A stretch of DNA of 64,000 bases from Ignavibacteriales bacterium (lineage in GTDB: Bacteria; Bacteroidota; Ignavibacteria; Ignavibacteriales; Ignavibacteriaceae), in NCBI GenBank assembly GCA_016709155.1, contig JADJEI010000013.1, positions 904,093 through 968,092 of the forward strand. The letters run 5' to 3'. The notes under the pieces were generated by a model. The model made no database searches. It was not told the origin of the DNA and saw only the letters and a program-made list of their open reading frames with translations. Made by a program: the position numbers and the translations under genes. Shown piece by piece: positions 4,472-52,606 of the stretch; the stretch's first letter is position 1; the number at the start of each line of letters is the position of its first letter.

Positions 4472-4812
<341 letters not shown>

Positions 4813-10687: not shown

Positions 10688-10751
10688 AAGGCTGTTCAGC
10701 AATGGGCAGCCTTTTTTATTAGTTGACAATAGCAATTTTTATCCTTAAGTT
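10688..10751 (+). promoter_or_regulatory. terminator + TTGACA-N17-TAAGTT promoter module, copy 2
   Basis: AAGGCTGTTCAGCAATGGGCAGCCTTTTTT, then TTGACA 10723..10728 and TAAGTT 10746..10751. Confidence 0.6.
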
Positions 10752-10780
10752 ACAAACAAAAATATTTAGGGATAAAAAAA

Positions 10781-12043: not shown

Positions 12044-12053
12044 AGGCATCTAA

Positions 12054-12476
12054 ATGAAATTAATTTTGTTGTTCTTTTTTATGTTAATAAATTTATCGGC
12101 TCAAGAATTCCTACCCCCTCCAGTAGAAATCTATGTTTGGCAGCAGGATAATATATATTCTGCTCCAGTTGAATATCACTTCGATGCTCAATCAATCGTA
12201 TGAGACCAAAATCATAACATCAATATTATAGACCCCGTAGATGGTGATGATATTATTATTACAAAGTTTTTCATATAAGGTAATATGTTGACTTCAAGTA
12301 ACGGAGGATGGCATTTTATTATATCTAATAGCGGCGGTAGCAGTTCACAAGGCTATGAATACCCTGTTATAGGGTATGGATTATATAAGGTATACACAAT
12401 ACAAAGTCCCGAATATTATTTTGAATATAATCAATTGTTCCAGGGCTGTTCAGAAATGGGCAGCCTTTTTTATTAG
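12054..12476 (+). pseudogene. truncated remnant of a cassette B-type (T9SS-tailed) gene
   Basis: 49-codon ORF with signal peptide (MKLILLFFFMLINLSAQ) and VEIYVWQQ matching B2/B3 LEIFTLTT/VEIFIIIQ, then stops. 12285..12476 keeps the GLYKVY..YYFEYN motif and runs into the terminator. Confidence 0.6.
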
Positions 12477-12505
12477 TTGACATTTCATTTCTTTGTGCTT
12501 AAGTT
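12443..12505 (+). promoter_or_regulatory. terminator + TTGACA-N17-TAAGTT promoter module, copy 3
   Basis: GGGCTGTTCAGAAATGGGCAGCCTTTTTT, then TTGACA 12477..12482 and TAAGTT 12500..12505. Confidence 0.6.
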
Positions 12506-12533
12506 TCAAACAAAAATATTTAGGGATAAAAAT

Positions 12534-13850
12534 ATGACAGTAAAAAATCATCTGTTCAAAAACTCTCGGCCCCTAAAGTATTTTATCTTTAGTCTTAGTT
12601 GTGTTGTTTTTGCAGTGATATTAACAAGCTGCGAACAAAACCCCACCGCCCCAAACGAACCGCCAAAACCTTACGGCTACCAGGAAGATATTTACTGGCC
12701 CAGCCTTGCAGATAGCCCCTGGCCTATGAATCATCACGATCCTCAGAGTACAGGCAGGAGTAAATATTTTGGTCCTAGTATCGGTACAATTGAGTGGATT
12801 GTTGATAGCGTAATCATTATGAGTTCGATCTCCATTGGGATAGACTCGTCAATATATTTACCATCACAATCAAGTGCTCATAACGGCTTTTTTTCGTTCA
12901 GCCCCAAAGGTGAATTAAATTGGAAACTTAGTGTACCTGAGGATATTATATTTTCATATGATGTCTCAACACCATTAGCGGCAGCAGATGGCACTATCTA
13001 TTTTACAGGTGGCTTATATGGTGCAATTTATGCAATTAATCCCAATGGTAGTATTAAATGGGAATTTCATCCTGAGAGTTCAATTTATCAAACAGGAATA
13101 AATTTAGGTTTAGATGGAACTATTTATTTTATAACTGTGAATAAAGAGTTGTTTGCTCTCGACCATAATGGGGGTTTAAAATGGACTTTCAAAAATGATG
13201 ATTTCTTCAGCGGTCTTGGTTCCGTCCTTTCTTTTTCTCCTGATGGTAGGACCCTGTATATACTTGGTAAATCAATTTCGTTGTATTCATTTGATATCCA
13301 ATCTCAATCTATAAATTGGACATTCGGAACCGAAACTCTGTATGCTGCACCAATTGTTGATGATGAGGGAAATATATATATACAATCTGCCTCACCGGAT
13401 TTCAATAATGGCATCAACTCTCTATTTTGTTTGAAACCGGATGGAAGTGTCAAATGGTCATTCGCGCACAACAATCCTCAAATGGATCAATCCTATGGCT
13501 ATGCAGAAGGAACAATTGATAAGTTGGGTAATATTTATTTCGCCTTTGATACTCTTTATTCTTTAAATTATTTGGGTCAGTTAAACTGGAAGATCCCTTT
13601 GAATGGTTTTACAGCGTCACCTTTAATATGCGATGCAAATGGAACAGTTTATATTAGCGTTTCTACTGTGGAATCGTATGCACTTAGTGAAATTATTGCG
13701 GTAGATAGTGATGGCAATTTTTTATGGAAAGTACCGATATCATCAATTTCTCCACTTGGAGATGTACTTGGTCTTTCACCAGCACTAAATAATGATAGAA
13801 GACTTTTTGTTCCAACATTTAAACAATATAGATTTTTTGTAATTAAATAA
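12534..13850 (+). CDS. lipoprotein, PQQ/BamB-like beta-propeller repeat protein (cassette gene A2)
   Basis: ATG at 12534 is homologous to the A1 start (MTVKNHLFKNSRPLKYF...LTSCEQNP). The ORF-track TTG at 12477 is the promoter -35 box. Confidence 0.75.
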   Translation: MTVKNHLFKNSRPLKYFIFSLSCVVFAVILTSCEQNPTAPNEPPKPYGYQEDIYWPSLADSPWPMNHHDPQSTGRSKYFGPSIGTIEWIVDSVIIMSSISIGIDSSIYLPSQSSAHNGFFSFSPKGELNWKLSVPEDIIFSYDVSTPLAAADGTIYFTGGLYGAIYAINPNGSIKWEFHPESSIYQTGINLGLDGTIYFITVNKELFALDHNGGLKWTFKNDDFFSGLGSVLSFSPDGRTLYILGKSISLYSFDIQSQSINWTFGTETLYAAPIVDDEGNIYIQSASPDFNNGINSLFCLKPDGSVKWSFAHNNPQMDQSYGYAEGTIDKLGNIYFAFDTLYSLNYLGQLNWKIPLNGFTASPLICDANGTVYISVSTVESYALSEIIAVDSDGNFLWKVPISSISPLGDVLGLSPALNNDRRLFVPTFKQYRFFVIK

Positions 13851-13864
13851 TACAGGAGAGTGTG

Positions 13865-15066
13865 ATGTTTTTAAATTTCGATATTACCTGCTTGTTTTAT
13901 TGTTTGCCTCAACTTTTCAAATTCTATCACAAGAATCAGAATTTCAACTAGAAATCTTTACGCTTACAACTGGATTTGGAGAATATGATGTAACGCGATT
14001 CAGATTGGATCCTTTGGGTGAAGTCTATTGTACGGATAGTTATTCCAACTATTTTCACGTTCCTAACGAAAGGAATACCATAGCATTAGAAGAGGTTACA
14101 GGCAATAACAGCGGTGGATATTTAGGACTTCAAATATGCTTTAATGATGATTCTGATTATGGAAAATTTTGGTTAGGATTGTATAAATTTTCCATTCAAT
14201 ATTTTAATGGGGGTGAGTGGATTGATTATTTCCATTTTTATATAGACTATAGGGATTGTTGGTATGGTAGATCTGGAATTGGAGGCTGTAACTCGAGTGA
14301 TATTGTTATTAAATATGATAATAATCTTGGCAAAACTTTTTGGGCATACGGCATACCTACACCCAATACTCAGTATACTGAATTAACACAGAATGAAGTA
14401 TTGAATTGGTGGGAAGCTAATGAATGTGATTCACATTGTGTAGAAGATTTTGAATCTATAATATTTCCTCAGTTAGAAAATGTAATTATAAACCAGCAGA
14501 ACCATGTTCAATTAAACTGGTCGGAGCCCGATCCCGCTTATGATATTGTTACAAACTATCAAGTTTGGAGAATGATGTTTTCGGGTAGATATGCCGGTCA
14601 GTTCAAATTGCGCACAACTGTAAGCTCAGGTGTTACTTCTTACACAGATTTATCACTCGATATTACTCAAAACCAGAATGGTGAGTTACTCCAATACAAA
14701 GTTGTTGCGCTGTTCCAAAGCAAACCTGATGAGCCATCGAATATTCAAAAAATAAGATTTTATTTTAACGAGGAAAAAAATGTTTTCGAAGTTAATCAGA
14801 CTATGGATTTTGAATTATCTCAAAATATTCCCAACCCCTTCAACCCAAGCACAAGTATTAGCTATTCAATTCCTGAAAATGCTTTTGTTACTTTGAAGAT
14901 TTATGATGTACTTGGAAATGAAGTTGAGGTTTTAATTAACGAGCAGAAAGAGTCGGGCAATTATCAAATAGACTTTAATGCAAGCGAACTTTCCAGCGGA
15001 ATTTATTATTACACATTAACCGCAGGAAATTTTACAAGCACGAAGAAGATGATCCTGGTGAAGTAA
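13865..15066 (+). CDS. secreted protein with FN3-like region and T9SS C-terminal sorting domain (cassette gene B2); start-region frameshift
   Basis: ATG 13865 plus one extra T in T5 13868..13872 gives signal peptide MFFKFRYYLLVLLFASTFQILSQ. The ORF track starts at TTG 13900. C-terminal NIPNPFNPSTSISY... tail. Confidence 0.65.
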
Positions 15067-15069
15067 AAG

Positions 15070-15122
15070 CCTCACCCGAACCCCGCTAAGCGGGGCAAGC
15101 CCCTCTCCAAAGGAGAGGGGAG
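15070..15122. repeat. GC-rich double-hairpin REP-like element
   Basis: CCCCGCtaaGCGGGG (15081..15095) and CCCCTCTCCaaaGGAGAGGGG (15100..15120). Confidence 0.6.
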
Positions 15123-15147
15123 TCTTTTGAATATAATTAATTGTTCT

Positions 15148-15211
15148 AAGGCTGCTCAGAAATGGGCAGCCTTTTTTATTAGTTGACAATGGCAAGCTTT
15201 ATCCATAAATT
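15148..15211 (+). promoter_or_regulatory. terminator + TTGACA-N17-TAAATT promoter module, copy 4
   Basis: AAGGCTGCTCAGAAATGGGCAGCCTTTTTT, then TTGACA 15183..15188 and TAAATT 15206..15211. Confidence 0.6.
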
Positions 15212-15240
15212 ACAAACAAAAATATTTAAGGGATAAAAAA

Positions 15241-16487
15241 ATGACAGCAATAAAGCTTCTGTTCAAAAATCTCGGCCCCTAAAGTATTTTATCTTTAGAC
15301 TTACTTGTGTTGTATTTGCAGTGATGTTGACAAGCTGCGAGCAAAACCCCACCGCCCCAAATGAACCGCCCAAACCCCCCGGCTATCAGGAAGATATTTA
15401 CTGGCCCAGCCTTGCCGGTAGCCCCTGGCCTATGGAACATCATGACCCACAAAATACTGGGCGAAGTAACATTGTAGGCCCAACCTTTGGTGTCATTGAA
15501 AAAATTATTGACGATGTTTTTTCAAATACTGGTATTGTCATTAATGGGGACTCAACTATTTATTTTGCTTGTCAGTACGAACTTAAAGCCTATTCATTCT
15601 TCGGTAATCTTAAATGGAAAATTTCATTTGCTTCAGAAACACTTTCAACCCCAATTATAGGAAATGATGGGACTATTTACGCATTATACTCCGACACGAT
15701 CAAAGCAATAAATCACAATGGTACTATAAAATGGGTGCTTCCAGTACATGCTAAAAATAGTGGAGGCATGAATATTGGGAGAGATGGTACACTGTATTTT
15801 TGTGATAGCGAGGAGCACACTCTTTATGCAGTAAGTAAGTACGGGAAACTATTATGGACAATGAATGACGAAAGAATGATGGGCTGGAACTCGCCAACAT
15901 TCTCTCCGGATGGTAATACGATATATTTACCTGGCAATCAAATATCTGTCGTCGCTATCGATATTGAGAACAAAAAAGTTAAATGGGAATTTGGTTCAAT
16001 AATTAGTGGCTCGGATTTCCTTGTTGATTCAGACGGAAATATATATTTATATACCGATCAATATGTCGATAATGAACATATATTCGGAATATACTCGCTC
16101 AATCAAAATGGTTTTATCCGATGGTATCATAGAGATATTAAAAATATTAATAGTGCTTTTACGATGGATGTGAATGGAAACTTAATTTATGGGGTTGATA
16201 CACTTCATTCTTTAAATTATAGCGGAAATCTAAATTGGAGTTTTCCTCTGAATGGATTTGTTGCCGCCAATTCCCTGGTGTGTGATTTTAATTCGAATAT
16301 TTATGCAATTTCCTCTGAATTATTTTCACAAGGATTCTCATTATTCTGTATTGATAAAGCAGGAATTCTAAAATATTCTATTATTTCTACATTCACCGGG
16401 TGGATCACTAATTCTTCTCCGGCAATAGCATTTAATAGACTAATCATACCCACTGAAGAATCAAATATTGCATATATCATAAAATGA
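15241..16487 (+). pseudogene. beta-propeller lipoprotein A3 with 1-nt deletion in the signal-peptide region
   Basis: ATG 15241 reads MTAIKLLFKNLGP*. Relative to A1/A2 (AAAAATTCTCGG) one T is missing at ~15270. The remainder (15321..16487) is intact and homologous. Confidence 0.7.
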
Positions 16488-16523
16488 AGAAAAAGTAAAA
16501 TGAAAAAAATAAAAAATAATTAA

Positions 16524-17687
16524 GATAATTTTACCCAAAGTCTTGCTTGGCCAGTCGACGTCGAGATTTTTATAATCATTCAAGGTTTGAATGCCGGCGA
16601 AAGTGTAGGATTCAGAATGGTTGCTCAAGGGGCAGTATGGAAAAGTTTAGGTCTTTGGGAGTTTCAATTAACTAATGAATATCATGATGTTTATTATCCA
16701 GGCGAATGTTTGATCACTGGCAATACGATCGGTAATTGGGCTTACGGCAATAATATTGCCGGTGGAAATTCCTTTAATCAACATACTATTGGTTATTCAT
16801 TGTATCGTTTAGAAGTTTATAATAACTATTGTGAATTTTTCCCAACCGTTTATTATTTTGATTACAGAGATTGTGATTATCCATTACGCACTAGGCCTGA
16901 TGGGACACCCTCACCTAATAGTAATAGCACAGGAGGAAATGACATTTGGATATTATACGATGCCCCCACTACTACCTGTTCTCTCAGTATAGATGGTGCA
17001 TTAACATAGCAATTGTTAAATAATAATGCTTATTCTAGTTATTGGGATATCAAAAACAAAAGTACACATTCGCCTTATACCAATTATTTCCCAAGCTACT
17101 GGCAAAATTGCCTTGCTCTAATTCCGTCATCGGGTAATCACCCCCATCTTGTTTGGGGACCTCATCCTACTTTTAATACTACCCAATACAGAATTTACAG
17201 AGCAGTTAGTAACTACCCCAGAAATCCTCAAGTTCTGAATTATTCCTTGATCACAACCGTAAGCTCTTCAACCTTTGATTATGTAGATTATGCTGTTCTA
17301 ATTATTCCAGGCTATCAATATGCTTATTATTATGTAGTTGGATGGGATGGAACTGTTCAATCGGATAAAACAAACTATGTAAGTACACAAGCAGTATTTT
17401 ATAAACAATCAGCTGAGATACCTAACGAATTTAGTATATCCCAAAATTACCCCAACCCATTCAACCCAAGCACAAGCATCAGCTATTCAATTCCGGAAAA
17501 TGCTTTTGTTACATTGAAGATTTATGATGTGCTTGGAAATGAAGTTGAGGCGTTAATAAACGAGCAGAAAGAGCCGGGTAATTATCAAATAGATTTTAAT
17601 GCAAGCGAACTTTCCAGTGGAATATATTATTATGCATTGACAGCAGGTAACTTTATAAGCACGAAAAAGATGTCGCTGATTAAATAA
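16524..17687 (+). pseudogene. cassette gene B3: T9SS-tailed protein lacking a signal peptide and carrying an in-frame TAG
   Basis: ORFs 16587..17009 and 17013..17687 share one frame, separated by TAG 17007..17009. The upstream ATG 16501 is out of frame and stops after 7 codons. The C-terminal tail is close to B2 at DNA level. Confidence 0.65.
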
Positions 17688-34424: not shown

Positions 34425-35658
34425 ATGAAAAGTATAATATCAATTCTGTTTTTTCTTTCAATTTCAATTTCCAACTTTGCGGCTACTTGTATTGAATGCC
34501 ACAGGCAAATTACACCTAACATCGTAACTGACTGGCAGCTCAGCAAGCATTCTGCAAACGATGTTGATTGCTCGGTGTGTCATGGTGATCAACATACAAA
34601 TGCAAATGACTTTAAGAATGCACTTATCCCCACCCCTGAAACATGCAAGCTTTGCCACGAAACTCAGGTTGAGCAATTCAGTAAAGGTAAACATGCAATG
34701 GCTTGGGCTTCGCTTAAGGCTATGCCGACTTTCCACATGCAGCCAATGGCGATGACTGAAGGTATGAAGGGCTGCGGCGGTTGTCATAAGATCGGTTTAA
34801 AATCAGAAGAAGAAATCAAGCAGCTTAAAAGTGAAGGTTCCGGTTTTGGTCTTGCGTCCTGCGACGCCTGCCATACCCGTCACACATTTTCTGTTGTTGA
34901 GGCTAAACAGCCGCAGGCATGTCAAACCTGCCACATGGGTTTTGACCACCCCCAATGGGAAATGTATTCAAGTTCAAAACATGGTGTTCGTAGTTCGTTA
35001 AAGCAAATGGATCTTCTTCCTGAATCTTCTTCTGCACCCACCTGTCAAACTTGTCACATGCAAGAGGGCAATCACGAAGTCCGTACTGCCTGGGGATTTC
35101 TCGCTGTCCGTCTGCCAATGCCTGAAGATAAGCAATGGACTGAGGACCGCGTAACTATATTACAAGGGCTGGGGGTTCTCGATCCTCAAGGCAACCCCAC
35201 CGGAAGGCTTGATGTTGTTAAAGCTGCTGATGTTGCTCGCCTTACTCAGGAAGCCTGGCAAACCGAGCGCGATAAGATGATCAAAACTTGCGGTAACTGT
35301 CACTCCGAGAATTTTGCAAAGGGTGAACTTGAAAAAGGCGACAACATGATCAAAGAAGCTGATCACCTGATGGCGCAGGGTATAAAAATTATTGCCGGGC
35401 TTTATCAGGATGGTATTATTCCTAAGCCTGAAGCTTATGCTTATAATTTCCCCGACTTGCTCACTTTCCATGACGCACCGACGGTTATTGAGCAAAAACT
35501 TTTTTGTGATGTTCCTTGAGCACAGGATGAGAACTTTTCAGGGAACTTTTCACGCGAGCCCTGACTACGCTCTCTGGTACGGCTGGAGTGAAATGCAGCA
35601 GGATTTAACTGAGATTAAAGAAATGGCTATGCAGATGAGAAAAGATTTTAAGCAGTAA
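34425..35658 (+). CDS. periplasmic octahaem c-type cytochrome (HAO-like family, tentative); frameshift at T6 35501..35506
   Basis: Signal peptide and eight CxxCH motifs. Removing one T joins ...TVIEQKLF to VMFLEHRMRTFQGTFHASPDYALWYGWSEM... (ORF 35392..35658 frame). Confidence 0.75.
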
Positions 35659-35777: not shown

Positions 35778-36389
35778 TTACGGTACTGCGATAGTTGCTA
35801 CATCAGATTCTAATCCAACTTCTACATCACCGATAACATAGACGGCTTTATACTCACGCATCTCTGCACCTGCAGCGAGGTTTTCGCGTGTGTCTATGTA
35901 AGGACTTTCGGTGTCAAAAGCTAAAAGTGTCCATTCAGTTTCACCTGCACGGCGGGTGTATATCTTCACTCCATCAGCAATACTTTTTTGAAATGAAATT
36001 CTAACATGCTGATTTGGCATAAGGAACAACTTCAATATTGGTTTCATTGTGTCTTTATCAACAAATGAATCAACACCTTCAATGCCAAGATCCTGACCGA
36101 TTGCTATAGTGTAATTCGGGTTTGCCTTCATCTGCCTTCCTTGAGCTCTGATTAGGTCATTTGCAATTTTTCGTTTTGCTCTTGTATCGGCGTACAGACT
36201 TTCCATATTTGCTTCGGCAGCAACCTGGGTGGAGTATGCAGTGCGGCAGGCACCCACCTTTGTGTTGGCTTCAGTTACCTGAGCCGGTGTGATGGCAAGC
36301 GCAACATTGTGCAGCGGCAGCTTGGTCAAATAATTTTCGTGAAATGTGTCCTGTTCATCAACAGGGCGGGGGATGAAATCCTTTTTCAT
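35778..36389 (-). CDS. hypothetical protein, paralogue of 18227..18859
   Basis: Clean 203-aa ORF, higher G+C than background. Same N-terminal KDFIPR start and C-terminal RRAGE...MREYKAVYVIGDVEVG module. Confidence 0.7.
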   Translation of the reverse strand: MKKDFIPRPVDEQDTFHENYLTKLPLHNVALAITPAQVTEANTKVGACRTAYSTQVAAEANMESLYADTRAKRKIANDLIRAQGRQMKANPNYTIAIGQDLGIEGVDSFVDKDTMKPILKLFLMPNQHVRISFQKSIADGVKIYTRRAGETEWTLLAFDTESPYIDTRENLAAGAEMREYKAVYVIGDVEVGLESDVATIAVP

Positions 36390-36574: not shown

Positions 36575-36935
36575 GAGTTGCCGACGGTTAAAAATTACAT
36601 GCTGAAGATAAAAATTACCTGCCCAACGGTGGAAAGGTTGGCGCCAACGCTATGACGGGGGGTGGCAACGCGCCCGGGTTTGTAAGCCCCGCTGTACGGT
36701 TGACGGCAACCGTGAGACGGCGCAGACCAACCGTCGCGCAGATGCCTTCCCCGTGTGACGGGTGCCCACCGACAAGACGGCGTTGCAGGCAACCGTGACA
36801 TGGGCGGCTTCCCCCGTGGGACGGTTGGTCCTCACTTTCCGACGGTTATCGCCAACCATCCAAAAGTTAGTGGCAACCGTAGCACGGTTGGTAAAAAGCT
36901 TCGATTTTAGAGTATTTTCAACGGTTATTGGACAT
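36575..36935. repeat. G+C-rich non-coding block packed with ACGGTTG/CAACCGT heptamers and short hairpins
   Basis: Seven exact heptamers (36696, 36707, 36728, 36790, 36821, 36874, 36884) and about as many one-mismatch variants. Palindrome GTTGGCGCCAAC at 36637..36648. ~65% G+C at 36661..36840. Confidence 0.8.
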
Positions 36936-36990
36936 TAATTGTTGCGTGGGTGAAGGGAAATTAGGAAGCATTAAAGAAGTTTAACGTTTC

Positions 36991-37101
36991 GGGGCTTAAA
37001 GAAGTGGCGGGTTAGAAGCACGAACTGTCAACCTACCACAACTGTTTATTAGAAGCACAAATGTTTGATTAACCACTTCACCCGCCATTTCTTTTAAGCC
37101 C
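36991..37101. other. long imperfect hairpin (~20-bp stem, 66-nt loop), possible structured RNA or recombination site
   Basis: GGGGCTTAAAGAAGTGGCGGGT (36991..37012) pairs with CACCCGCCATTTCTTTTAAGCCC (37079..37101), with one bulge and one G-U. Confidence 0.55.
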
Positions 37102-37270
37102 TTGTTATCGGTAGCTCTTCTGTCTGTCCGAAGATGTGTCGTGTCAAGTTTGCACACACTTTGTCCGAAGCGAATTACATTAGAAGCTATGTCCGTCCAA
37201 TTACGCACAGTGCGTTGACAAAATAAATTAAAACATTGAAGAGTGTATTTTTTTTGCGTTGATTTTTTCA

Positions 37271-37828
37271 TCAGTTGTATCTTTTGTTTACTGTTTCCAT
37301 ATAATCTACCACAACTGCATTCATTTTATTTCGATACCACCGAAAAAAGAAATTAGGAACTTTTGCAGCTTCTTGTCGGCTGATATAAATTTCGTCTTGT
37401 ACGTCACGAAGTTCGTCTGTGCCAATATATATTTTATTGAGAATTATTTCGTCCAAATATATTGAGATAGCTTTTCGTCTATCAATTGCAGATGAGTGTC
37501 CACGAATAAGAGTAATAAAGTGAGTGTAAAATGAGAGTATAGAAAAGTAAATTAAAAAAATAGTCATGCCATTTGAGTTGTAAGAAATAAGAAATATCCA
37601 AAGCACGATTGAATAGGAAATAAGAAATCCCGCCAACCATCTACAATAAATAATGCGTAACTCAATATCCCAACTTGTGTTTGAATGTTGCAAAACTGCT
37701 ACGGAAATATTATGAGGAATCGTTGTTGAAATGTTTGGTGAATACCAATCTATAATTTCATTGCCTTTGTATTCAAGAGAAAATTTTGAAACTTCGAATG
37801 GTCTGGCTTCTTTAAGGTTGACTTCCAT
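37271..37828 (-). CDS. 2-TM membrane protein with charged helical C-tail (candidate membrane effector, second half)
   Basis: TM helices LAGFLISYSIVLWIFLISY and MTIFLIYFSILSFYTHFITLI. Overlaps the upstream gene by 17 nt. Confidence 0.6.
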   Translation of the reverse strand: MEVNLKEARPFEVSKFSLEYKGNEIIDWYSPNISTTIPHNISVAVLQHSNTSWDIELRIIYCRWLAGFLISYSIVLWIFLISYNSNGMTIFLIYFSILSFYTHFITLIRGHSSAIDRRKAISIYLDEIILNKIYIGTDELRDVQDEIYISRQEAAKVPNFFFRWYRNKMNAVVVDYMETVNKRYN

Positions 37829-38135
37829 CGTAAATTAAAAGTGCAGTGTCAAACTCTTCCTTAAATATTGCTCCCTTAGAAGTATTTCCTTTGAAAGTAT
37901 CTGCGAATATTTGAACTAAAACAGTAAGCAAAAAAGAACAACCGAATAAAGCAAGTTTTATGCTTTCGTCTTTGATAAGAACATAGGCGATAGGGTAAGC
38001 AAAAGCAAGAAAGATTAAAAAGTAAGTAACTTTTATTTCACCATTCTTTGCTTTTGTATATGCAACTGTTGATGCTTTTAGCAGCTTAATAAATTCAGGT
38101 TCGTTTTGTTTTATCAGAATTTCATTCATTTTCAT
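37812..38135 (-). CDS. 2-TM membrane protein (candidate membrane effector, first half)
   Basis: TM helices VTYFLIFLAFAYPIAYVLI and LALFGCSFLLTVLVQIFA. The start overlaps the upstream ORF end by 14 nt. Confidence 0.6.
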   Translation of the reverse strand: MKMNEILIKQNEPEFIKLLKASTVAYTKAKNGEIKVTYFLIFLAFAYPIAYVLIKDESIKLALFGCSFLLTVLVQIFADTFKGNTSKGAIFKEEFDTALLIYDGSQP

Positions 38136-38738
38136 TGTTGTTTAATTTCCAATCAGGATAAATAGCTTCATTTACTATTTTCTCTGCGATTTCAAAAAGG
38201 TAATCGGGAATAGTGACTGAATTTTCCTTTTTTGTTTTTACAATTTCCTCTGCCGTTTTTTTTGCTAAAGATTTTAATGAGGGATGGCCCAGTGAAATTC
38301 TTATATGGTCGCCTTTGTGTGATTCTCCATACACTTGAAAAATCTTTTGCTCTATTTCGGTTTGCCAATTATTCATTATAGTTTTACAAATTGGCTTGAG
38401 AGTATCGGGATAAGCCTGATAAGCATTCAACAAATTGGTGATAGCCCTTCTTTCAATTGTTCTCCAATTGGCAAAGATGTATTCACTTTTGTCTTCCATA
38501 AATAATTTTGATGAAAAGGAATATCCATCAATCCATAATAGAAATCCCTGTTTAATTTAAGCTTTCTGTTTGACAAAAAATTGTTAATGATATTGCTTAT
38601 AATGATTGTTACAAAATCATGAGTTGTTTCAATAGAAGAATAATATCTTAATGCAGACAAAACCGAGAATAAATATTTTCCTGAATTCCAATCAGGGTCG
38701 CTCAACCTTTTTTGAGCGGCTTTTTTTTTCCGCCTCAT
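38122..38738 (-). CDS. C-terminal continuation of the repeat protein (two overlapping ORF fragments) or a separate 125-aa protein
   Basis: ORF 38427..38738 continues the repeat consensus (AAQKRLSDPDWNS) in another frame after T9 38721..38729. ORF 38122..38499 overlaps it by 73 nt in a third frame. Confidence 0.45.
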
Positions 38739-39773
38739 TTTCTTTTTGATTAAAAGCGGCTACGACAATATCATGTTGAAGCGAAGTGATGTTTTGGTCG
38801 CTCAATATTTTATGAGCGGCTTGTTGTTTTTCCGTCTCATTTCCTTTTTGATTAAAAGCGGCTACGACAATATGATGTATTAGCGAAGTAATGTTTGGGT
38901 CGCTCAATATTTTATGAGCGGCTTGTTGTTTTTCCGTCTCATTTTCTTTTTGATTAAAAGCGGCTACGACAATATCATGTTGAAGCGAAGTGATGTTTGG
39001 GTCGCTCAATATTTTATGAGCGGCTTGTTGTTTTTCCGTCTCATTTTCTTTTTGATTAAAAGCGGCTACGACAATATCATGTTGAAGTGAAGTGATGTTT
39101 GGGTCGCTCAATATTTTTTGAGCGGCTTGTAGTTTTTCCGTCTCATTTCCGTTTTGATTAAAAGCGGCTACGACAATAACAGTTTGAAGCGAAGTGATGT
39201 TTGGGTCGCTCAATATATTTTGAGCGGCTTGTTGTTTTTCCGTCTCATTTCCTTTTTGATTAAAGGCGGCATTTACAATTATCCCATTGATTGAATAGAT
39301 GTTTGGGTCGCTCAATATTTTTTGAGCGGCTTGTAGTTTTTCCGTCTCATTTCCTTGTTGATTAAAAGCGGCATTTACAATTATCCCATTGATTGAATAG
39401 ATGTTTGGGTCGCTCAATATTTTTGAGCAGCTAATTGTTTTTCCGTCTCATTTTCTTTTTGATTAAAAGCGGCTACGACAATATCATGTTGAAGCGAAGT
39501 GATGTTTTGGTCGCTCAATATTTTATGAGCGGCTTGTTGTTTTTCCTCTTTGCCCGCTTTTTTGAAATAGTTTAACCATGCTAAATTGGGATAAACTTTC
39601 TTGTCATAGAGCTTATCTAAATATCCTACTATTTGAACGGGAGTTAAATTGATATCCTCATCAGTTAAATGATTAAGATATGACGGATATAAGTTGCCTT
39701 TTTCAAATAATATATTTATCAACAATAGTTTCTCCTGACCATCAGCAAATATTTGATTCTGGTATTGCATCAT
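38692..39773 (-). CDS. tandem 34-aa repeat (TPR-length) protein; two ORFs joined across T5 39420..39424
   Basis: Repeats of SDPNITSLQHDIVVAAFNQKENETEKQQAAHKIL. ORFs 39414..39773 and 38692..39417 differ by a 1-nt deletion relative to sister units. Confidence 0.7.
38697..39560. repeat. 102-bp tandem repeat array (about 8 full units plus degenerate ends), coding
   Basis: GTCG landmarks at 38797, 38899, 39001, 39103, 39205, 39307 and 39409 (exact 102-bp spacing), then 39510 (101 bp). Confidence 0.9.
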
Positions 39774-39778
39774 AGCAG

Positions 39779-41248
39779 CTAAAAAAATGATGAGAAATTA
39801 TCATAGCTTGGTGCATAGTTGTCAATTACAATATTCAGAAATTGTTTCAATAATAAATCATCATATTTTTTTGTGACAGGGTTATAAAATTCCAGCCATC
39901 CGTCTAAAATCACTCCGGCTAATCCTTCTTCGGCTAATTTATCGTGGTTGAATTGAACAAAATCTATTTGTTGAAGTTTTTTGTTTCTTAATGATGTATT
40001 CCTTCCTTTGTTTATATAACTTTTTACCCGTTCAAGAATAGTTGAGCGAGCATTCCAACTCGTAAAGGCGTTACTTACTTTATCATTTTCATTATAGGTA
40101 TCCGCAATTTTCAGAAATGTATCAAAGTCAATAAATATTTTGTGGTTGGTGTAAATGCAAGCCCAGTTGTGCAATGCTTTTGCCATTCCGGGATATACGG
40201 CATTTATTTTTTTCAAATCACTTTTCACAATGCTTTTAAAAGCCAAGCCGGGTTCAGAGAAATCAATTTCCATAGGGTCAAATTTTTCATTGCTCACTCG
40301 TGCAATTACAAACAACAAGAGGAATAGACTCGTATTATAATACTCCTGCTTCTTTGTAACTTTTTCTTTGGCATCTTTCCATTCTGTGTGAAGCTCCATG
40401 ATTTCAGCAATAATTTTTTCGTTTTCGGTTGATTGGAGATGAAATACATTTAATGGATCAGGTAGGTTATTAATATATTCCTTCCCCGAAGTTTCCCTGT
40501 CACCAATAATAACTCTGATGTTGTTTATGGCTTGTGTTTTAAGTAAAAACTCTTTTGCTTTTTCCTTTAGATTATCTGTAAGACGATACCAGTCTTCAAT
40601 TATTACTAAATAATTTCTAAAACGGTCCTCTTGTATTTGTATCAATCCATTATCCGTAAAGTTTTCAAACCCCCTGTCTTTTACCCAAATAAATTTAAAA
40701 GATTCGTTGCATAGTTCAACTGCCAATCGTCTAAGCAAGGTAGATTTACCACAGCCACCAAAACCATGCACTACTGCTACAACTTTGTATGTTCTTGGTT
40801 TATCAAAGCAACTAGAAGCGATTGTTTTAACTTTTCCGTAATCATTCCTTACCACATCATAATTATTTATTACACCATACCACTGGCAATTTTCGTCCTG
40901 TTTTGCAGTGTAGAAATCAGGTTTTGTAAATTGTTTTCCGTTCTTAATCCTTCTTATGAAAGTGCTGTTAATTACTTCAGCACCTTCTATATGTATGTTT
41001 TCAATTTTGTCTTTGTTGTCTTGCAGGAATTGGAGAAAAAGTTTTGTGCCTTTGATACATTCATCTTTATATAACTTAATAAAAGTGTAATCCCTATCCT
41101 TAAATTCAGCTTTCTCTGCAACATCATCATTCTTCAAATCAAAGTGGTAGATTTTTATGTCATTTCCTTTTAATCCTTTAAAAAACTTGTCGAATACAAT
41201 CTGTTCATTAAATTGAGTGCCGAGAATAATTAGTTTTTTTTGTTTGAA
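39779..41248 (-). CDS. P-loop STAND/NACHT-like NTPase segment
   Basis: Walker A VVHGFGGCGKSTLL and Walker B YLVIIEDW. The frame is open upstream to 41248, beyond the ORF-track TTG at 41137. Confidence 0.75.
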   Translation of the reverse strand, partial: FKQKKLIILGTQFNEQIVFDKFFKGLKGNDIKIYHFDLKNDDVAEKAEFKDRDYTFIKLYKDECIKGTKLFLQFLQDNKDKIENIHIEGAEVINSTFIRRIKNGKQFTKPDFYTAKQDENCQWYGVINNYDVVRNDYGKVKTIASSCFDKPRTYKVVAVVHGFGGCGKSTLLRRLAVELCNESFKFIWVKDRGFENFTDNGLIQIQEDRFRNYLVIIEDWYRLTDNLKEKAKEFLLKTQAINNIRVIIGDRETSGKEYINNLPDPLNVFHLQSTENEKIIAEIMELHTEWKDAKEKVTKKQEYYNTSLFLLLFVIARVSNEKFDPMEIDFSEPGLAFKSIVKSDLKKINAVYPGMAKALHNWACIYTNHKIFIDFDTFLKIADTYNENDKVSNAFTSWNARSTILERVKSYINKGRNTSLRNKKLQQIDFVQFNHDKLAEEGLAGVILDGWLEFYNPVTKKYDDLLLKQFLNIVIDNYAPSYDNFSSFF

Positions 41249-41844
41249 TCAATATCCCCATAAATAACGTTATATAAAGAGTTTTGTTCTGCTCCAAGTT
41301 TAGTATATGAAGCGGAAGTAAAAACAATATTATCCAAGGTAGTTTCTTCATTCATTAATCCGTGAAGGTGAAGAATACAATTATCATTACTATCCATTGT
41401 ATACGCCGGATAATTAAAAACCGGATACTTTTTCCCTTTATGTTTTGATTGAATTGTAGTTAAAACATTATCAAAATTAAAAGTGAAAATTGAATACCAG
41501 TTCGGCAGAAAAACCGAATCAAACAACTCGAAGTTAAATGCCGTTTCATCCACTAAAAATAAATTTCTTAGCTCATTAAGCAAATTAGGATTATTAGCAA
41601 TTTTGTTTTCCCATACCGATGCAGCAGCTTTATATTCTGTAACTGATTTTGTAAATTTTTCATTTGTAAATTTTATGAATTGTTCAGCCGTTGGAATTGT
41701 ACTAAATTCTTTGTTTTTATTCTTGACTCCAAAACTGAAACCAGCACCGAGAACCAAACAAAAATGCCCTTCTCTTAAGTCATCAAAAAAAGAATTGTCC
41801 GGCTTGAAATCGGCAATCAAAACAATATGGTTATCTTTGCTCAT
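41230..41844 (-). CDS. SIR2-like (SIR2_2-type) domain segment
   Basis: FCLVLGAGFS glycine-rich start, ILHLHG catalytic-His context, IVFTSASY. The expected LIILGTQF strand follows in the next frame after the T8 run 41234..41241. Confidence 0.7.
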   Translation of the reverse strand: MSKDNHIVLIADFKPDNSFFDDLREGHFCLVLGAGFSFGVKNKNKEFSTIPTAEQFIKFTNEKFTKSVTEYKAAASVWENKIANNPNLLNELRNLFLVDETAFNFELFDSVFLPNWYSIFTFNFDNVLTTIQSKHKGKKYPVFNYPAYTMDSNDNCILHLHGLMNEETTLDNIVFTSASYTKLGAEQNSLYNVIYGDIDSNKKN

Positions 41845-42187
41845 ATGTGAAAAACAAAAAAATGTGCTGGGGCAAAAATTAAAAAAACTTCATTGCGGCT
41901 GTGCGATAAAGTTATCATTCCATTTGGTTTCGTATTGAAAAATGTTCGTTTCATATCATTCAGTTTTAAGTTTCACAGTCGCCAATAGGGTTGCACATAA
42001 CTTGTTTATACCAGCCATAAAGTTGCACATATACAATGGCATTGCCATTAGCTTTGCGTTATAAACGGCTGTTATTATTTCTGGTACAAACATAAAAAAT
42101 AATATTATAATTCATCAAATGGTGATTTCATTTTCCGCAAACTTTCATCTCACTCATCACTTCTCTTGTCTACTCTTTGTGGAGCGA

Positions 42188-42949
42188 TTATTTTTTCCTG
42201 ATGTAGATGATTTTAATATTCTTTTTACCTGTGTCACGCTCATCAATTTCAAATCTGTTCAGGCTTTTAATTAAGGGCAGCATTTTGGGGAAGCCGTAAT
42301 TTCTGGGGTCAAAGTCGGGTTTCTTTTTCAGCATCAGGTTCCCTAATTCGCCTAAAAAAGTCCAGCCATTTTCGTCGGCAAGGTCAGTTATGCTGTCGGT
42401 TAATAGATTGATTAAATCAGAGTCAACTTTGCTCAAAGGATTATTGTCAGGTGGTGCTGCATCCTTTGATATTTTTTTATGCCTGTCTGCCGGCTGTCTT
42501 GTTGTTTTTGTTTTTAAAATTTCGAGGTAGATGAATTTATCGCAGGCGGTTATAAAAGGATTTAAGGTTTTCTTTTCTCCAATTCCAATTACTTTCATAC
42601 CTGCTTCTCTAAGTCTTGTGGCAAGTCTTGTAAAATCGCTGTCGCTTGAAACAATACAAAAGCCACCCACCTTACCGGTGTATAAAATATCCATCGCATC
42701 AATTATAAGTGCGCTGTCACTTGCGTTTTTTCCTATCGAGTAGCTGTACTGCTGTATTGGAGTAATGGCATTTTCTAAAAGCACGTGTTTCCAGCCGGAA
42801 ACGGATTGCTTTGTCCAATCAGCATAAATTCTTTTAAAGGTAGGTGTACCATACTTTGCAATTTCCTCAAACATTTCTTTCACGTTTGCGTAAGGCACAT
42901 TGTCGGCATCAATTAATACTGCTAATTTCAGGTCATTTTGGGTTTCCAT
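42188..42949 (-). CDS. NYN (PIN-like) nuclease domain protein with C-terminal LOTUS/OST-HTH-like module
   Basis: LAVLIDADNV...IYADW...GKNASDSALIIDAMD...FCIVSSDSDFTRLATRLRE.G NYN signature. C-terminal GWTFLGELGNLMLKKKPDFDPRNYGF. Confidence 0.8.
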   Translation of the reverse strand: METQNDLKLAVLIDADNVPYANVKEMFEEIAKYGTPTFKRIYADWTKQSVSGWKHVLLENAITPIQQYSYSIGKNASDSALIIDAMDILYTGKVGGFCIVSSDSDFTRLATRLREAGMKVIGIGEKKTLNPFITACDKFIYLEILKTKTTRQPADRHKKISKDAAPPDNNPLSKVDSDLINLLTDSITDLADENGWTFLGELGNLMLKKKPDFDPRNYGFPKMLPLIKSLNRFEIDERDTGKKNIKIIYIRKK

Positions 42950-49621: not shown

Positions 49622-50374
49622 ATGAATGAGCCAAATAAAATTTCTGTAATTATCATTACAAAAAATGAAAATCAAAATATTACCGATTGCCTTAATTCTG
49701 TAAAATGGGCTGATGAAATCATCATCATTGATGCAGAAAGTTCGGACGATACAATAGAACTTGCAAAAAAATTTACTGATAAAGTTTTCATCAAAAAGTG
49801 GAATGGATATTCGGATCAGAAAATGTATGCGCTTTCATTAGCAAAGAATGAATGGGTTTTAAGTCTCGATGCCGATGAAAGAATTACTGATGAATTAAAA
49901 AATGAAATTATTTTTTCTGATCTTTCCATTGCTGACGGATATAAAATTTCGAGAGCTAATTATTTTTTAGGCAGACTTATTCGAGGCTGCGGCTGGAGTC
50001 ACGATTATCAGTTAAGGTTATTTAGAAAATCAAAAACAAAAGTGACTGAAAGAATGGTACACGAAGGTTTTATCGTTGACGGGAAAATTTCTGAACTGAA
50101 ATCTTCGATGCTTCATTATTCATATCGAAATTTTCATGATGCTGTGAATAAAATTAATAAGTACTCTACTCTTGAAGCACAAGAAAAATATCAGCGCAAA
50201 AAAGTAAATGGTTTTACAATCCTGCTAAATCCTTTTATCGCATTCGTACAGTTTTTTATTTTCAGAAAAGGATTTATTGATGGTACATATGGATTGCTCG
50301 TTTCCATTATGCATGCAATGACCAAGATGATGATGTACATGAAAATGTGGGAACTGCAGAAGAAACAAAAATGA
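49622..50374 (+). CDS. glycosyltransferase family 2
   Basis: ISVIIITKNE...IIIIDAESSDDT...LSLDADE (DxD) motifs. Confidence 0.85.
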   Translation: MNEPNKISVIIITKNENQNITDCLNSVKWADEIIIIDAESSDDTIELAKKFTDKVFIKKWNGYSDQKMYALSLAKNEWVLSLDADERITDELKNEIIFSDLSIADGYKISRANYFLGRLIRGCGWSHDYQLRLFRKSKTKVTERMVHEGFIVDGKISELKSSMLHYSYRNFHDAVNKINKYSTLEAQEKYQRKKVNGFTILLNPFIAFVQFFIFRKGFIDGTYGLLVSIMHAMTKMMMYMKMWELQKKQK

Positions 50375-51487
50375 GTATGAACGTTGTCATAACTAACGAC
50401 GCTGTCAATATTGCCGGTGGTGAAAACTATGCGCTTTATCTTGCCGAAGGATTAAGAGAACGAAATCACAAGGTCATTATAGCACCGTTAAAAAATTCTG
50501 CATTAGCCGACGAAGCACGTGAGCGTAAATTTTTAGTTTATGAAATTCCATATGGACTTAAGGGCAGGGAATTCAATGCAGTAAAAGTTTTATACAATTT
50601 TCTTCGAAAAGAAAAAATTGACATAGTCCATTCTAATTCAAATTTGGATAGAACTATCGCAGCCTTCGCTGGAAAATTTATTGGAGCTAAAAATTTTACT
50701 ACCGTTCATTCTTGCTTATCTATTAGCCGAAATGTAACTCATCGCTTTAGAAATAAATTCTTGATTGATCGCTTCACTCCGGTTGGATTTTCTACGAAAG
50801 ATATTTTGATAAACATGGATTTAATCCCTGAAGAAAAAATATCTGTGGTGCATATTGGCTTACCACCGGCTCAATTTGTTTATTCGAGTGAAGGCAGAAG
50901 AAAAATTCGAAATGAATTTTCGATTAAAGATGAAGAAATACTTATAGGAACGGTTTCCCGGTTAGTTGAATTTAAAGGACATTCTAATTTAATAAACGCT
51001 TTTAAGGATGCTTCTTTAAAAAATCAAAAGCTAAAATTGCTGATTGTTGGATCAGGTGAACTTGAGGCGGAATTAAAAACAAACCGCAAATTTTCAGTTG
51101 GAGGACAAAATCATTTTTACCGGGAATAGAAAAGATATTTCCGATATACTTTCTGCAATAGATATCTTTGCACAAACTTCAATTGATAATGGAGGGGAGA
51201 CATTTCCTGTGTCAATTCTCGAAGCTATTTCAGTCGGGCTTCCGATTATTGCAAGTAATGTCGGTGATATTAAATATCTCGTTCGAAATGAAAATGGAAT
51301 TTTGCTTCAGCCGGGAAATGTTTTGCAGATATCGGACTCAATCTTAAAACTTTCTTCTAATCAAAGCTTGATCGAAAAATATAAATCAGCTTCGAGAAAA
51401 TTGTTTGAAAATGAATATACTGTCGGGCGAATGGTAAATAAAATTGAATCACTTTATTTAGAAGAACTAAAAAAAGATGTCCATTAA
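50371..51487 (+). CDS. glycosyltransferase family 4, interrupted at A5 51075..51079
   Basis: ATG 50371 overlaps the GT2 stop. Removing one A joins ...GSGELEAELK to QTANFQLEDKIIFTGNRKDIS...ETFPVSILEAISVGLPIIAS. Confidence 0.75.
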
Positions 51488-52606
51488 AATATTGATCGCA
51501 CCCGATTCGTTTAAGGAATGTATTGACTCAATTTCGCTGGCAGCGCTTATTGAAGATGAATTTAAAAAGTTTAATAACTATGAACTGAAATCAAAACCAA
51601 TTTCTGACGGCGGAGATGGATTTCTGAATGTTTGTAAAAATTACTTTCAACTTGAAGAAGTTAAATATTCAGTCTCAACAGCTTATAATGAAGACATAAT
51701 GATTTGCCAAATTGGATATGATAAGATTAGAAGAAATATTTTTATAGAATCGGCTGATGTACTCGGACTAAAAAAATTCCTGCCGACAAGAGAAAACCTT
51801 TAAAGCTTAACTCAAAAGGATTAGGAGAGCTTCTTTTACAAATTAAATCAGATGTAGAAAAAGAAAAACTAAATTGTGACTCAATTTATCTTGGTATTGG
51901 CGGCACCGGCACAGTTGATTTCGGACTTGGTATGTGTTCAAAACTCGGGTTACAAATATCTGATTTTTATAAAAAAGAAATGGATGTACTCCCTGAAAAT
52001 TATTTCCGCATGGGTGAAATTTATCCGCCGAACAAGACTTTGCCATTTAATATTATTTGTGTTGTTGACGTTCAGAATCAATTGATAGGACAGGATGGGG
52101 CAGTGATAAAATTTGCCTCACAGAAAGGCGCATCACCGTCAGATATTAAATTGTTAGAACTTGGGTTTAGTAAAATTCTAAACATCCTTCAAACGAAAAA
52201 CTTGATAGGGAATGAAAAATCTTTTTCCGGGGCAGGTGGAGGAATTGCTGCGGCACTTCAAATATTTTATAATGCGAAAATTATACAAGCCAAAGATTTT
52301 ATTCTTAATTTGCTCGATGTGAAGATGGAGATTGATCATTCGGAAATTATAATTACCGGTGAAGGCAAGTTCGATTCACAAAGTTTACTCGGCAAAGGTG
52401 CATACTCAATTGCAGAATATGCCTTACAAAAAAATAAAAAGGTTTTTTTTGTCTGTGGTAAATCTGAAATGAAAGCCGGCAATTTTGATAATGACAATTT
52501 CTCTATTATAGAGTTGAGCAATTTTATGAGTTCAGAAAACGAATCAATTCAAAATATAAATCGGGGTATTTCTTTAGCATGTGAGCTAATCCGGTCTAAA
52601 CTTTGA
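51477..52606 (+). CDS. glycerate kinase, interrupted at A7 51770..51776
   Basis: KILIAPDSFKE...SDGGDGF N-terminus. One extra A joins ...DVLGLKK to IPADKRKPLKLNSKGLGELL...GIGGTGTVDFG and the 51932..52606 ORF. Confidence 0.75.

What the first reader, a model, noticed from the sequence alone, without database searches (positions are those of the whole stretch)
38122..41844. Six consecutive ORF fragments rebuild one ~1,240-codon SIR2-STAND-repeat protein if single bases are restored at homopolymers
Junctions, read on the minus strand:
- (a) 41234..41241 is T8 on the plus strand. ORF 41230..41844 ends GDIDSNKKN*. The neighbouring frame is open from 41248, and with one more A it reads GDIDSNKKK-LIILGTQFNEQIVFDKFF, the expected final strand of a SIR2_2 fold running into the P-loop ORF.
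- (b) 39781..39787 (A7): one extra base would fuse ...DNFSSFF to LAAMMQYQ... of the repeat ORF that starts 5 nt later.
- (c) 39420..39424 (T5): sister units have T6 or TTTTAT here, and this unit is 101 bp rather than 102.
- (d) 38721..38729 (T9): the alternative frame continues the repeat consensus (EAEKKKAAQKRLSDPDWNS versus ETEKQQAAHKILSDPNITS).
- (e) A fifth shift within 38499..38560 would add the last 125 codons.

Five interruptions in 3.7 kb is several-fold denser than in the rest of the window. Besides assembly error, genuine decay or slipped-strand ON/OFF switching at poly-A/T tracts remain possible.
Basis: seen in the sequence. Interest (0 to 1): 0.7.

Follow-up and report, generated by a model that had tools for sequence, protein, structure and literature searches.

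The report
Defence gene split by assembly errors
The six ORF fragments are one Avs5-like SIR2-STAND anti-phage gene, and near-identical short-read copies of the locus are intact, so the breaks are most likely homopolymer errors in a long-read metagenome assembly, not decay or ON/OFF switching.

Summary
Six minus-strand ORFs (41844..38122) rebuild one ~1,240-aa protein: SIR2, an nSTAND5 NTPase, eight 34-aa repeats and a C-terminal domain. Homologues are single 1,100-1,400-aa proteins.

The decay or phase-variation reading is not supported. An independent contig with a MEGAHIT-style name (L094) is 99.6% identical and carries the gene as one uninterrupted ORF. At all five junctions the window is short of bases:
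- A8 vs A9
- T7 vs T8
- A5 vs A6
- A9 vs AAAAACAAAAA
- A4 vs A5

The downstream S_4TM effector gene has two more deficits. Three further contigs from other sequencing runs agree with L094 at every shared site.

The window comes from an NCBI Ignavibacteriales MAG with a 1.12-Mb contig. Elsewhere it shows the same kind of homopolymer indels against SPAdes-named contigs of the same species, mostly deficits, in conserved genes.

Break density is 18 times higher here. The 5-kb cassette is strain-variable, because conspecifics carry different genes at this site. I suggest, without testing it, that this made polishing poorer.

Verdict: an ordinary Avs5-like defence operon with consensus errors (about 85%). 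A real strain-specific pseudogene is about 10%, and phase variation about 2%.

The parts
38122..41844 (-). One SIR2 - nSTAND5 NTPase - 34-aa-repeat - C-terminal-domain gene (Avs5-like), shown in the window as six ORF fragments
   Evidence: Frames and repair. Full-length homologues. The orthologue L094 is an uninterrupted ORF 99.25% identical to the repaired protein. AF2 mean pLDDT 89.4. Foldseek top hits are EfAvs5, SAMD9 and the AVAST5 filament.
41230..41844 (-). Fragment 1: N-terminal part of the SIR2_2 domain (GAGFS, TFNFD and HLHG motifs)
   Evidence: PF13289 E=5e-7, profile positions 2-75 of 141. G33/G35/S37, N123/D125 and H161 are invariant among 33 homologues.
41234..41241 (-). Junction (a): A8 on the coding strand; the orthologue has A9
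39779..41248 (-). Fragment 2: end of SIR2, the linker, the nSTAND5 P-loop NTPase (Walker A GFGGCGKST, Walker B LVIIEDW) and helical domains
   Evidence: PF25199 E=3.5e-10. Invariant G361-T369 and D418.
39781..39787 (-). Junction (b): T7 on the coding strand; the orthologue has T8
38695..39546 (-). Tandem array of 102-bp (34-aa) units, 8.4 copies at 89% match. Each unit is a helix-turn-helix in the model. L094 has one unit fewer.
39420..39424 (-). Junction (c): A5 where sister units and the orthologue have A6, giving a 101-nt unit
38721..38729 (-). Junction (d): A9 where four short-read contigs have AAAAACAAAAA, a 2-nt deficit
38487..38490 (-). Junction (e): A4 where four short-read contigs have A5
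   Evidence: Predicted from the homologue alignment and confirmed.
37271..38135 (-). Downstream S_4TM (SMODS-associating 4TM) effector gene. It overlaps the STAND stop codon and is split by two 1-nt deficits: T4 vs T5 at 37837-37840, and C vs CC at about 37797.
   Evidence: PADLOC 4TM effector hits on both halves. PF18159 E=2e-38 after a provisional repair. Intact 288-aa orthologue P0206 in 6 contigs. Indels.
36996..37271 (-). 91-aa ORF of unknown function, the third gene of the cassette; conserved in L094-L096
   Evidence: No Pfam or NCBIfam hit.
36960..41997 (.). Strain-variable cassette. Homology to conspecific contigs L098-L102 stops at 36959 and 41998, and they carry a different 4.4-kb gene set here.
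36753..36756 (-). Non-coding G4 (approximate position) where L094-L096 and L098 have G5: the same kind of deficit outside any gene

Best explanation
The locus is an intact three-gene, strain-variable defence cassette. It holds an Avs5-like SIR2-nSTAND5-repeat protein, an S_4TM membrane effector and a 91-aa ORF. The apparent fragmentation comes from consensus errors, mostly under-called homopolymers, in the long-read metagenome-assembled genome that supplied the window.

Shown here:
- The fragments are one gene.
- Near-identical copies in short-read contigs are intact.
- At every break the window is short of bases.
- The same kind of homopolymer indels, mostly deficits, occur in conserved genes elsewhere in the window.

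Inferred:
- The assembly is Nanopore-derived.
- The 18-fold local excess of breaks arises because the cassette is present in only part of the strain population, so it had low or mixed read support during polishing.

Inferred function of the intact protein, by analogy with Avs5: the C-terminal repeats sense a phage protein, the STAND NTPase oligomerises, and the SIR2 domain then hydrolyses NAD+ and aborts infection. The role of the S_4TM partner is unknown.
For: 1. L094 is 99.6% identical to the window outside indels (24 mismatches over about 5.9 kb). It has a MEGAHIT-style contig name (ENA ERZ27258567, k141). It encodes the STAND gene as an uninterrupted ORF running to the contig end, followed by an intact 288-aa S_4TM gene.
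2. All eight small indels against L094 are deficits in the window: 41234-41, 39781-87, 38721-29 (2 nt), 38487-90, 37837-40, about 37797, and non-coding 36753. The window's extra repeat unit is also 101 nt rather than 102. That is nine of nine in one direction (two-sided P=0.004).
3. Logan contigs from three other runs (L095-L097) agree with L094 at all five shared sites. Only the window differs.
4. The indel-to-substitution ratio is 9:24 in the cassette against 16:1106 in the flanks (Fisher P=6e-9).
5. The same error type occurs outside the cassette, measured against SPAdes-named conspecific contigs. The window has T5 vs T6 at 1696 (splits a TPR/TM gene), T8 vs T9 at 2945, T6 vs T7 at 4630 (splits a ferredoxin) and A5 vs A7 at 51080 (splits a GT1 glycosyltransferase). 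All these genes are intact in the other contigs.
6. The source is an NCBI MAG, 'Ignavibacteriales bacterium', locus tags IPH11_177xx, with a 1,119,086-bp contig, which is typical of long-read assembly. Residual homopolymer indels are a documented property of Nanopore assemblies (abstract of PMC9262707).
7. The repaired protein shows no other damage. It has no in-frame stops, and only 4 of 106 highly conserved columns deviate, all but one mildly (I164M, L607V, L693M; D681Y is not conservative). That is within the 0-20% range of intact homologues.
8. Conspecific contigs carry a different cassette at this site. This gives a reason for locally poor read support.
Against: The short-read contigs come from other samples, so they show that intact alleles exist, not that this strain's allele is intact.

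The 18-fold local excess of breaks coincides with one functional unit, and relaxed selection on a dead operon would give the same pattern. The low-coverage explanation for the excess is not tested.

Five of the six 9-base runs in the window sit in intact ORFs, so the assembly is not uniformly poor at long homopolymers.

Two discrepancies elsewhere go the other way, with the window carrying one extra base: T6 vs T5 at about 35500, which truncates the cytochrome gene, and A6 vs A5 at 44590.

I could not confirm the sequencing technology of the source MAG with the tools.
Confidence: 0.85

Rival explanations
1. Genuine strain-specific pseudogenisation. In this strain the costly SIR2-STAND/S_4TM cassette was inactivated once, and then accumulated further slippage deletions under relaxed selection, while intact alleles persist in other populations.
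For: The breaks cluster 18-fold in one operon, while the neighbouring NYN, GNAT, OMP and orf203 genes are whole. Homopolymer density in the locus is only 1.2-1.5 times that of the rest of the window, so run content alone does not explain the cluster. Homopolymer slippage is the fastest mutation class in AT-rich DNA (general knowledge).
Against: There are seven frameshifts but no nonsense codon, no larger deletion and no excess change at conserved columns. Divergence from the intact allele is only 0.4%, yet there are nine indels, all deficits, including one in non-coding DNA. One lesion removes 2 nt including a C from AAAAACAAAAA, which is not simple slippage. Several conserved genes elsewhere in the same assembly show the same lesion type.
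Confidence: 0.1
2. Slipped-strand phase variation, or transcriptional or translational slippage, switches the defence gene ON and OFF at poly-A/T tracts.
For: The intact allele does carry A9 and T8 tracts inside the ORF. Defence genes can be costly, so switching is conceivable.
Against: Five tracts in one gene plus two in its partner are out of frame at once, so no single switch restores expression. Some sites are runs of 4-5, or C versus CC, which are too short for contingency loci. Four independent contigs show no tract-length variation at the five sites they share. Similar indels occur in unrelated housekeeping-type genes.
Confidence: 0.02
3. The six ORFs are genuinely separate small genes.
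For: GenBank annotates fragments as separate proteins. Looked up here were MBK6915415 (125 aa) and MBK6915419 (204 aa, 'SIR2 family protein'); the S_4TM halves are MBK6915413 and MBK6915414.
Against: All 84 homologues found are single long proteins. The junctions cut through a beta-strand of the SIR2 fold and through repeat units. The 99.6%-identical orthologue is a single ORF.
Confidence: 0.01

Closest known systems
Avs5 / AVAST type 5 (EfAvs5, PaAvs5): SIR2-STAND anti-phage NLR-like proteins
   Same: Same tripartite layout: an N-terminal SIR2_2 NADase-type domain with conserved Asn/Asp/His, a central STAND P-loop NTPase, and a C-terminal alpha-helical repeat sensor. The best Foldseek hits are EfAvs5 (9jap, E=3e-14) and the AVAST5 filament (9nc9). 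Described Avs5 proteins hydrolyse NAD+ after sensing a phage protein and assembling into filaments (PMC11897194, PMC12931631).
   Different: The NTPase matches Pfam nSTAND5 (PF25199), whereas described Avs5 proteins carry nSTAND3 (PF20720). There is no sequence-level match to any solved structure and no match to any PADLOC Avs model. The sensor is eight near-identical 34-aa units. An S_4TM gene follows in an overlapping reading frame. Activity is untested.
DSR2 and ThsA (defence-associated SIR2 NADases)
   Same: SIR2 effector fold, with Foldseek probability 1.0.
   Different: They have no STAND NTPase and use different sensor modules.
S_4TM effectors of CBASS (PF18159, PADLOC 'Effector 4TM')
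   Same: The downstream gene matches PF18159 over positions 1-285 of 291 (E=2e-38) and nine PADLOC 4TM models.
   Different: No CD-NTase/SMODS gene is nearby. Here the partner is a SIR2-STAND protein. The pairing is adjacent in two loci.
Homopolymer indel errors in Nanopore-based MAGs
   Same: The errors are mostly 1-2-base under-calls at A/T runs that split ORFs, and they disappear in short-read assemblies. The need for short-read polishing to remove homopolymer indels is stated in PMC9262707.
   Different: The local density is 18 times that of the rest of the window. This needs an extra cause, such as low or mixed coverage of a strain-variable cassette, which I did not test.

Membership tests
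Avs5 (AVAST type 5) | N-terminal SIR2-like (PF13289) effector domain with catalytic Asn and His | tested here: met
   The 204-aa fragment hits PF13289 at 30.2 bits against a cutoff of 24.5. N123, D125 and H161 are invariant in 33 homologues. The fold matches the SIR2 proteins EfAvs5, DSR2 and ThsA.
Avs5 (AVAST type 5) | Central STAND NTPase of the nSTAND3 type (PF20720), as reported for PaAvs5 | tested here: not met
   Pfam assigns nSTAND5 (PF25199, 40 bits) and gives no PF20720 hit for this protein. A few distant homologues hit both families, so the two are related.
Avs5 (AVAST type 5) | Recognised by curated Avs profile models | tested here: not met
   The only PADLOC v2.0 hit is a weak mad8 match (E=0.0014); no Avs model matches. 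phmmer against PDB sequences, which include EfAvs5, finds nothing better than E=0.047.
Avs5 (AVAST type 5) | C-terminal alpha-helical repeat sensor | tested here: met
   In the AF2 model, residues about 760-1035 are regular helix pairs with a 34-aa period, encoded by 102-bp tandem units.
Avs5 (AVAST type 5) | Phage-triggered NAD+ hydrolysis and anti-phage protection | not testable with these tools
   Needs expression and phage challenge.
Phase-variable (contingency) locus | A single long simple-sequence tract whose length varies within and between populations and toggles the frame | tested here: not met
   Seven sites are out of frame at once, several at runs of 5 or fewer. Four independent contigs are identical at the five sites they share. 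Within-sample read heterogeneity could not be tested.
Bacterial pseudogene | Disrupting lesions reproducible in accurate reads of the same strain | not testable with these tools
   No reads are available. Indirect evidence points to error.
CBASS | A CD-NTase (SMODS) gene next to the S_4TM effector | tested here: not met
   No such domain was found in the cassette or its immediate neighbours by Pfam or PADLOC.

The most novel reading that the evidence does not exclude
The breaks are real in this strain. A toxic two-gene SIR2-nSTAND5 / S_4TM abortive-infection cassette was silenced by a burst of slippage deletions while intact alleles circulate in sister populations. That would be population-level ON/OFF heterogeneity of an Avs5-like system by decay rather than by reversible switching. 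A separate point would hold whether or not the breaks are real: SIR2-STAND plus S_4TM may be a recurrent two-gene system in which the STAND/SIR2 protein controls a pore-forming partner.
Probability: 0.1. Interest if true: 0.4.

Novelty: not a real feature. Interest (0 to 1): 0.12.

Why it matters
This is mainly a caution. GenBank annotates pieces of this gene as separate proteins, so domain-based defence-system finders will miss or miscount it. Apparent pseudogene clusters or phase-variable tracts in long-read MAGs need checking against short-read data.

The biology underneath is ordinary but usable:
- an Avs5-like SIR2-nSTAND5 protein with unusually uniform 34-aa repeats;
- an S_4TM partner gene;
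- a strain-variable hotspot in an Ignavibacteriales species whose core proteins recur on many public metagenome contigs.

If the breaks were real, they would show fast loss of a defence cassette within a species.

Tried and rejected
- Exact-protein look-ups of window products (the 204-aa fragment, NYN, PurL and P0102) returned nothing. The route that worked went through the 90% cluster members.
- The search with the repaired STAND protein found no homologue above 56% identity. The near-identical orthologue surfaced only through the S_4TM cluster.
- The genome-contig scan with the Fer4_5 neighbour identified the lineage (Ignavibacteriaceae; best hit 90% amino-acid identity on a 3.3-kb contig) and the conserved PurL-BrkB-Rrf2-Fer4 synteny. 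None of the 80 loci carried the cassette.
- The metagenome-contig scan gave only eight distant loci, none with S_4TM.
- The conserved-column deviation test cannot separate recent decay from error.
- A uniform random-error model is rejected, because the breaks cluster (P about 5e-6) and homopolymer content explains only a 1.2-1.5-fold difference.
- My provisional single-base repair of S_4TM was wrong. The orthologue shows two deficits with a short stretch in the third frame between them.
- My first placement of junction (e) was replaced by the A4 site.
- Rfam and tRNA scans found nothing.
- I recall that the IPH/IPJ locus-tag series belongs to the Nanopore-plus-Illumina activated-sludge MAG set of PMC8012365 (methods read). 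I could not link the accession to that paper with the tools, so I treat it as unverified.
Full report
**What is in the sequence.** On the minus strand between 41844 and 38122 lie six consecutive ORFs in frames 2, 1, 0, 2, 0, 2. Neighbouring open frames overlap by 16-127 nt. Adding one base at 41234-41241, 39781-39787 and 39420-39424, adjusting 38721-38729, and shifting once more near 38490 gives a single 1,241-codon ORF with no internal stop. A 102-bp tandem array of 8.4 copies spans 38695-39546. The spacing of a conserved anchor is 101, 102 x6 and 100 nt. The unit at (c) is therefore one base short and the unit at (d) is two bases short.

**It is one gene.**
- A search of 5.8 billion proteins found 84 homologues. 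Nearly all are single proteins of about 700-1,600 aa, most of them 1,000-1,400 aa, carrying SIR2_2 (PF13289) and nSTAND_NTPase5 (PF25199). Several cover 99% of the repaired query.
- In an alignment with nine of them, every junction falls in contiguous conserved sequence.
- The 204-aa first fragment matches only positions 2-75 of the 141-position SIR2_2 profile.
- An AlphaFold2 model of the first 1,140 residues of the repaired protein is confident (mean pLDDT 89.4). It puts a beta-strand at residues 204-208, exactly across junction (a), and shows regular helix pairs through the repeats.
- Foldseek against the PDB ranks EfAvs5 (SIR2-STAND), human SAMD9, the AVAST5 filament, DSR2 and ThsA at the top.
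- Pfam gives nSTAND5, not the nSTAND3 reported for Avs5. PADLOC Avs models and PDB sequences do not match. The protein works like an Avs5 but belongs to a sister family.

**The neighbour is broken too.** The two ORFs downstream (37812-38135 and 37271-37828) match the N- and C-terminal halves of PADLOC CBASS-type 4TM effectors and Pfam S_4TM. The first overlaps the STAND stop codon, so the two genes form an operon.

**Other broken genes in the window.** Pfam scans and frame analysis found these splits:
- a TPR/TM protein, at about 1696;
- a ferredoxin, at about 4630;
- a multihaem cytochrome, at about 35500;
- a GT1 glycosyltransferase, at about 51080;
- a glycerate kinase, at about 51768.

In total there are 12 frameshift events, 7 of them in the 4.6-kb operon. 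That is an 18-fold excess (P about 5e-6). Homopolymer density, which is only 1.2-1.5 times higher in the operon, does not explain it.

**Source of the window.** A search with the S_4TM protein returned a 185-aa protein identical to the window's fragment, from an NCBI MAG. Cluster look-ups showed that the window's proteins are MBK6915375-MBK6915432 of 'Ignavibacteriales bacterium' (locus tags IPH11_), on a 1,119,086-bp contig. GenBank annotates the fragments as separate proteins. A megabase contig in a MAG indicates long-read assembly. I recall that this accession series belongs to the Nanopore-plus-Illumina activated-sludge MAG set whose methods I read, but I could not verify the link.

**The decisive comparison.** The same 90% cluster held an intact 288-aa S_4TM protein from other assemblies. 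Its contigs carry the same cassette.

L094 has a MEGAHIT-style name, is 5,853 bp long, and differs from the window by 24 substitutions over about 5.9 kb. It encodes the STAND gene as an uninterrupted ORF to the contig end (1,204 codons, 99.25% identical to my repair), then S_4TM, then a 91-aa ORF.

Every small indel is a deficit in the window:

| Window position | Window | L094 |
|---|---|---|
| 41234-41241 (a) | A8 | A9 |
| 39781-39787 (b) | T7 | T8 |
| 38721-38729 (d) | A9 | AAAAACAAAAA |
| 38487-38490 (e) | A4 | A5 |
| 37837-37840 (S_4TM) | T4 | T5 |
| about 37797 (S_4TM) | C | CC |
| 36753 (non-coding) | G4 | G5 |

The window also has one extra repeat unit, and that unit is 101 nt long with A5 in place of A6 (site c).

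Three Logan contigs from other runs agree with L094 at all five sites they share. The indel-to-substitution ratio is 9:24 in the cassette against 16:1106 in the flanks (P=6e-9).

**The same error type elsewhere.** Contigs with SPAdes-style names from conspecific strains (95-96.5% identity) carry an intact GT1, TPR/TM protein and ferredoxin. The window has A5 vs A7 at 51080, T5 vs T6 at 1696, T6 vs T7 at 4630 and T8 vs T9 at 2945. Two discrepancies go the other way: T6 vs T5 at about 35500, which truncates the cytochrome, and A6 vs A5 at 44590. Overall there are 13 deficits and 2 excesses (P=0.007). Under-called homopolymers are the expected residual error of Nanopore consensus (PMC9262707, abstract).

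**Why the breaks are denser here.** In conspecific contigs L098-L102, homology to the window stops at 36959 and 41998. Between the NYN gene and orf203 they carry a different 4.4-kb set: protoglobin, DUF2024, MarR, DUF202, DUF6615 and DUF3276. The SIR2-STAND/S_4TM cassette is therefore strain-variable. Fewer or mixed reads over such a segment would leave more uncorrected indels. This is an inference and was not tested.

**Weighing the alternatives.**
- *A true pseudogene.* This would explain why the breaks cluster in one operon. It fits poorly with seven frameshifts and no nonsense codon. It also fits poorly with normal conservation at 106 constrained columns and with only 0.4% divergence from an intact allele. 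The uniformly missing bases, one in non-coding DNA and one a loss of 'AC' inside A5CA5, argue against it, as do the equivalent lesions in conserved genes elsewhere.
- *Phase variation.* This is excluded in practice. Too many sites are out of frame at once, several at very short runs, and four populations show no tract variation.
- *Probabilities.* Consensus error about 0.85; real strain-specific decay about 0.10; phase variation about 0.02.

**Limit.** The intact copies come from other samples. Only reads from the MAG's own sample can close the question.

**Verdict.** The interesting interpretations are not supported. What is really there is an ordinary Avs5-like defence operon in a strain-variable hotspot, mis-rendered by assembly errors.

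Noticed in passing
window 1236-2095, 4481-4809, 34425-35655, 50347-51487, 51477-52606: Five other genes are split by single homopolymer indels: a TPR/TM protein (T5 vs T6 at 1696), a ferredoxin (T6 vs T7 at 4630), a multihaem cytochrome (T6 vs T5 at about 35500, which removes the last 46 aa), a GT1 glycosyltransferase (A5 vs A7 at 51080), and a glycerate kinase (A7 at about 51768, with no reference available). The first four are intact in conspecific short-read contigs.
   Followed up: yes
window 36960-41997 versus L098 10953-15319: This is a strain-variable hotspot between the NYN/OST-HTH gene and orf203. The window's strain carries SIR2-STAND, S_4TM and a 91-aa ORF. Conspecific contigs carry protoglobin, DUF2024, MarR, DUF202, DUF6615 and DUF3276 instead. 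A 329-bp copy of window 42105-42433 lies inside the alternative cassette (L098 13317-13644).
   Followed up: partly
window 37271-38135; P0002 locus; L094: The S_4TM effector gene, normally filed under CBASS, sits directly downstream of a SIR2-STAND gene with no CD-NTase nearby. Nine S_4TM homologues share an exact contig length with a SIR2-STAND homologue: P0136/P0002, P0111/P0010, P0168/P0011, P0185/P0016, P0112/P0025, P0152/P0028, P0089/P0036, P0141/P0082 and P0093/P0084. This suggests a recurrent two-gene system. Adjacency is shown for only two loci, and five other STAND loci lack S_4TM.
   Followed up: partly
window 36590-36900: A GC-rich non-coding stretch carries 7 of the window's 13 ACGGTTG matches within 195 bp, on both strands (3.9 expected in the whole window). 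It is conserved at about 97% in conspecific contigs whichever cassette they carry. There is no Rfam match. It may be a protein-binding site array.
   Followed up: partly
window 38695-39546: The eight 34-aa sensor repeats are about 89% identical at the DNA level, and two adjacent units are nearly identical. The short-read orthologue has one unit fewer. This is either real copy-number variation or collapse in the short-read assembly.
   Followed up: partly
window 16524-17006 and 17010-17684: Two open frames in the same frame are separated by a single stop codon. The second ends in a T9SS Por_Secre_tail domain. This could be a nonsense change, a base error, or two genes.
   Followed up: no
window 8886-17687 versus L105 15606-16944: A second strain-variable block. 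The window has a trypsin/beta-propeller/T9SS-tail gene cluster where a conspecific contig has a single Peptidase_C25 T9SS protein.
   Followed up: no
window 35778-36389: A 203-aa ORF with no Pfam or NCBIfam family, and only weak chance-level PADLOC hits to Cas12f and Cas12u4 N-termini. It is conserved (91% amino-acid identity) next to the cytochrome gene in the closest other species (L006).
   Followed up: partly
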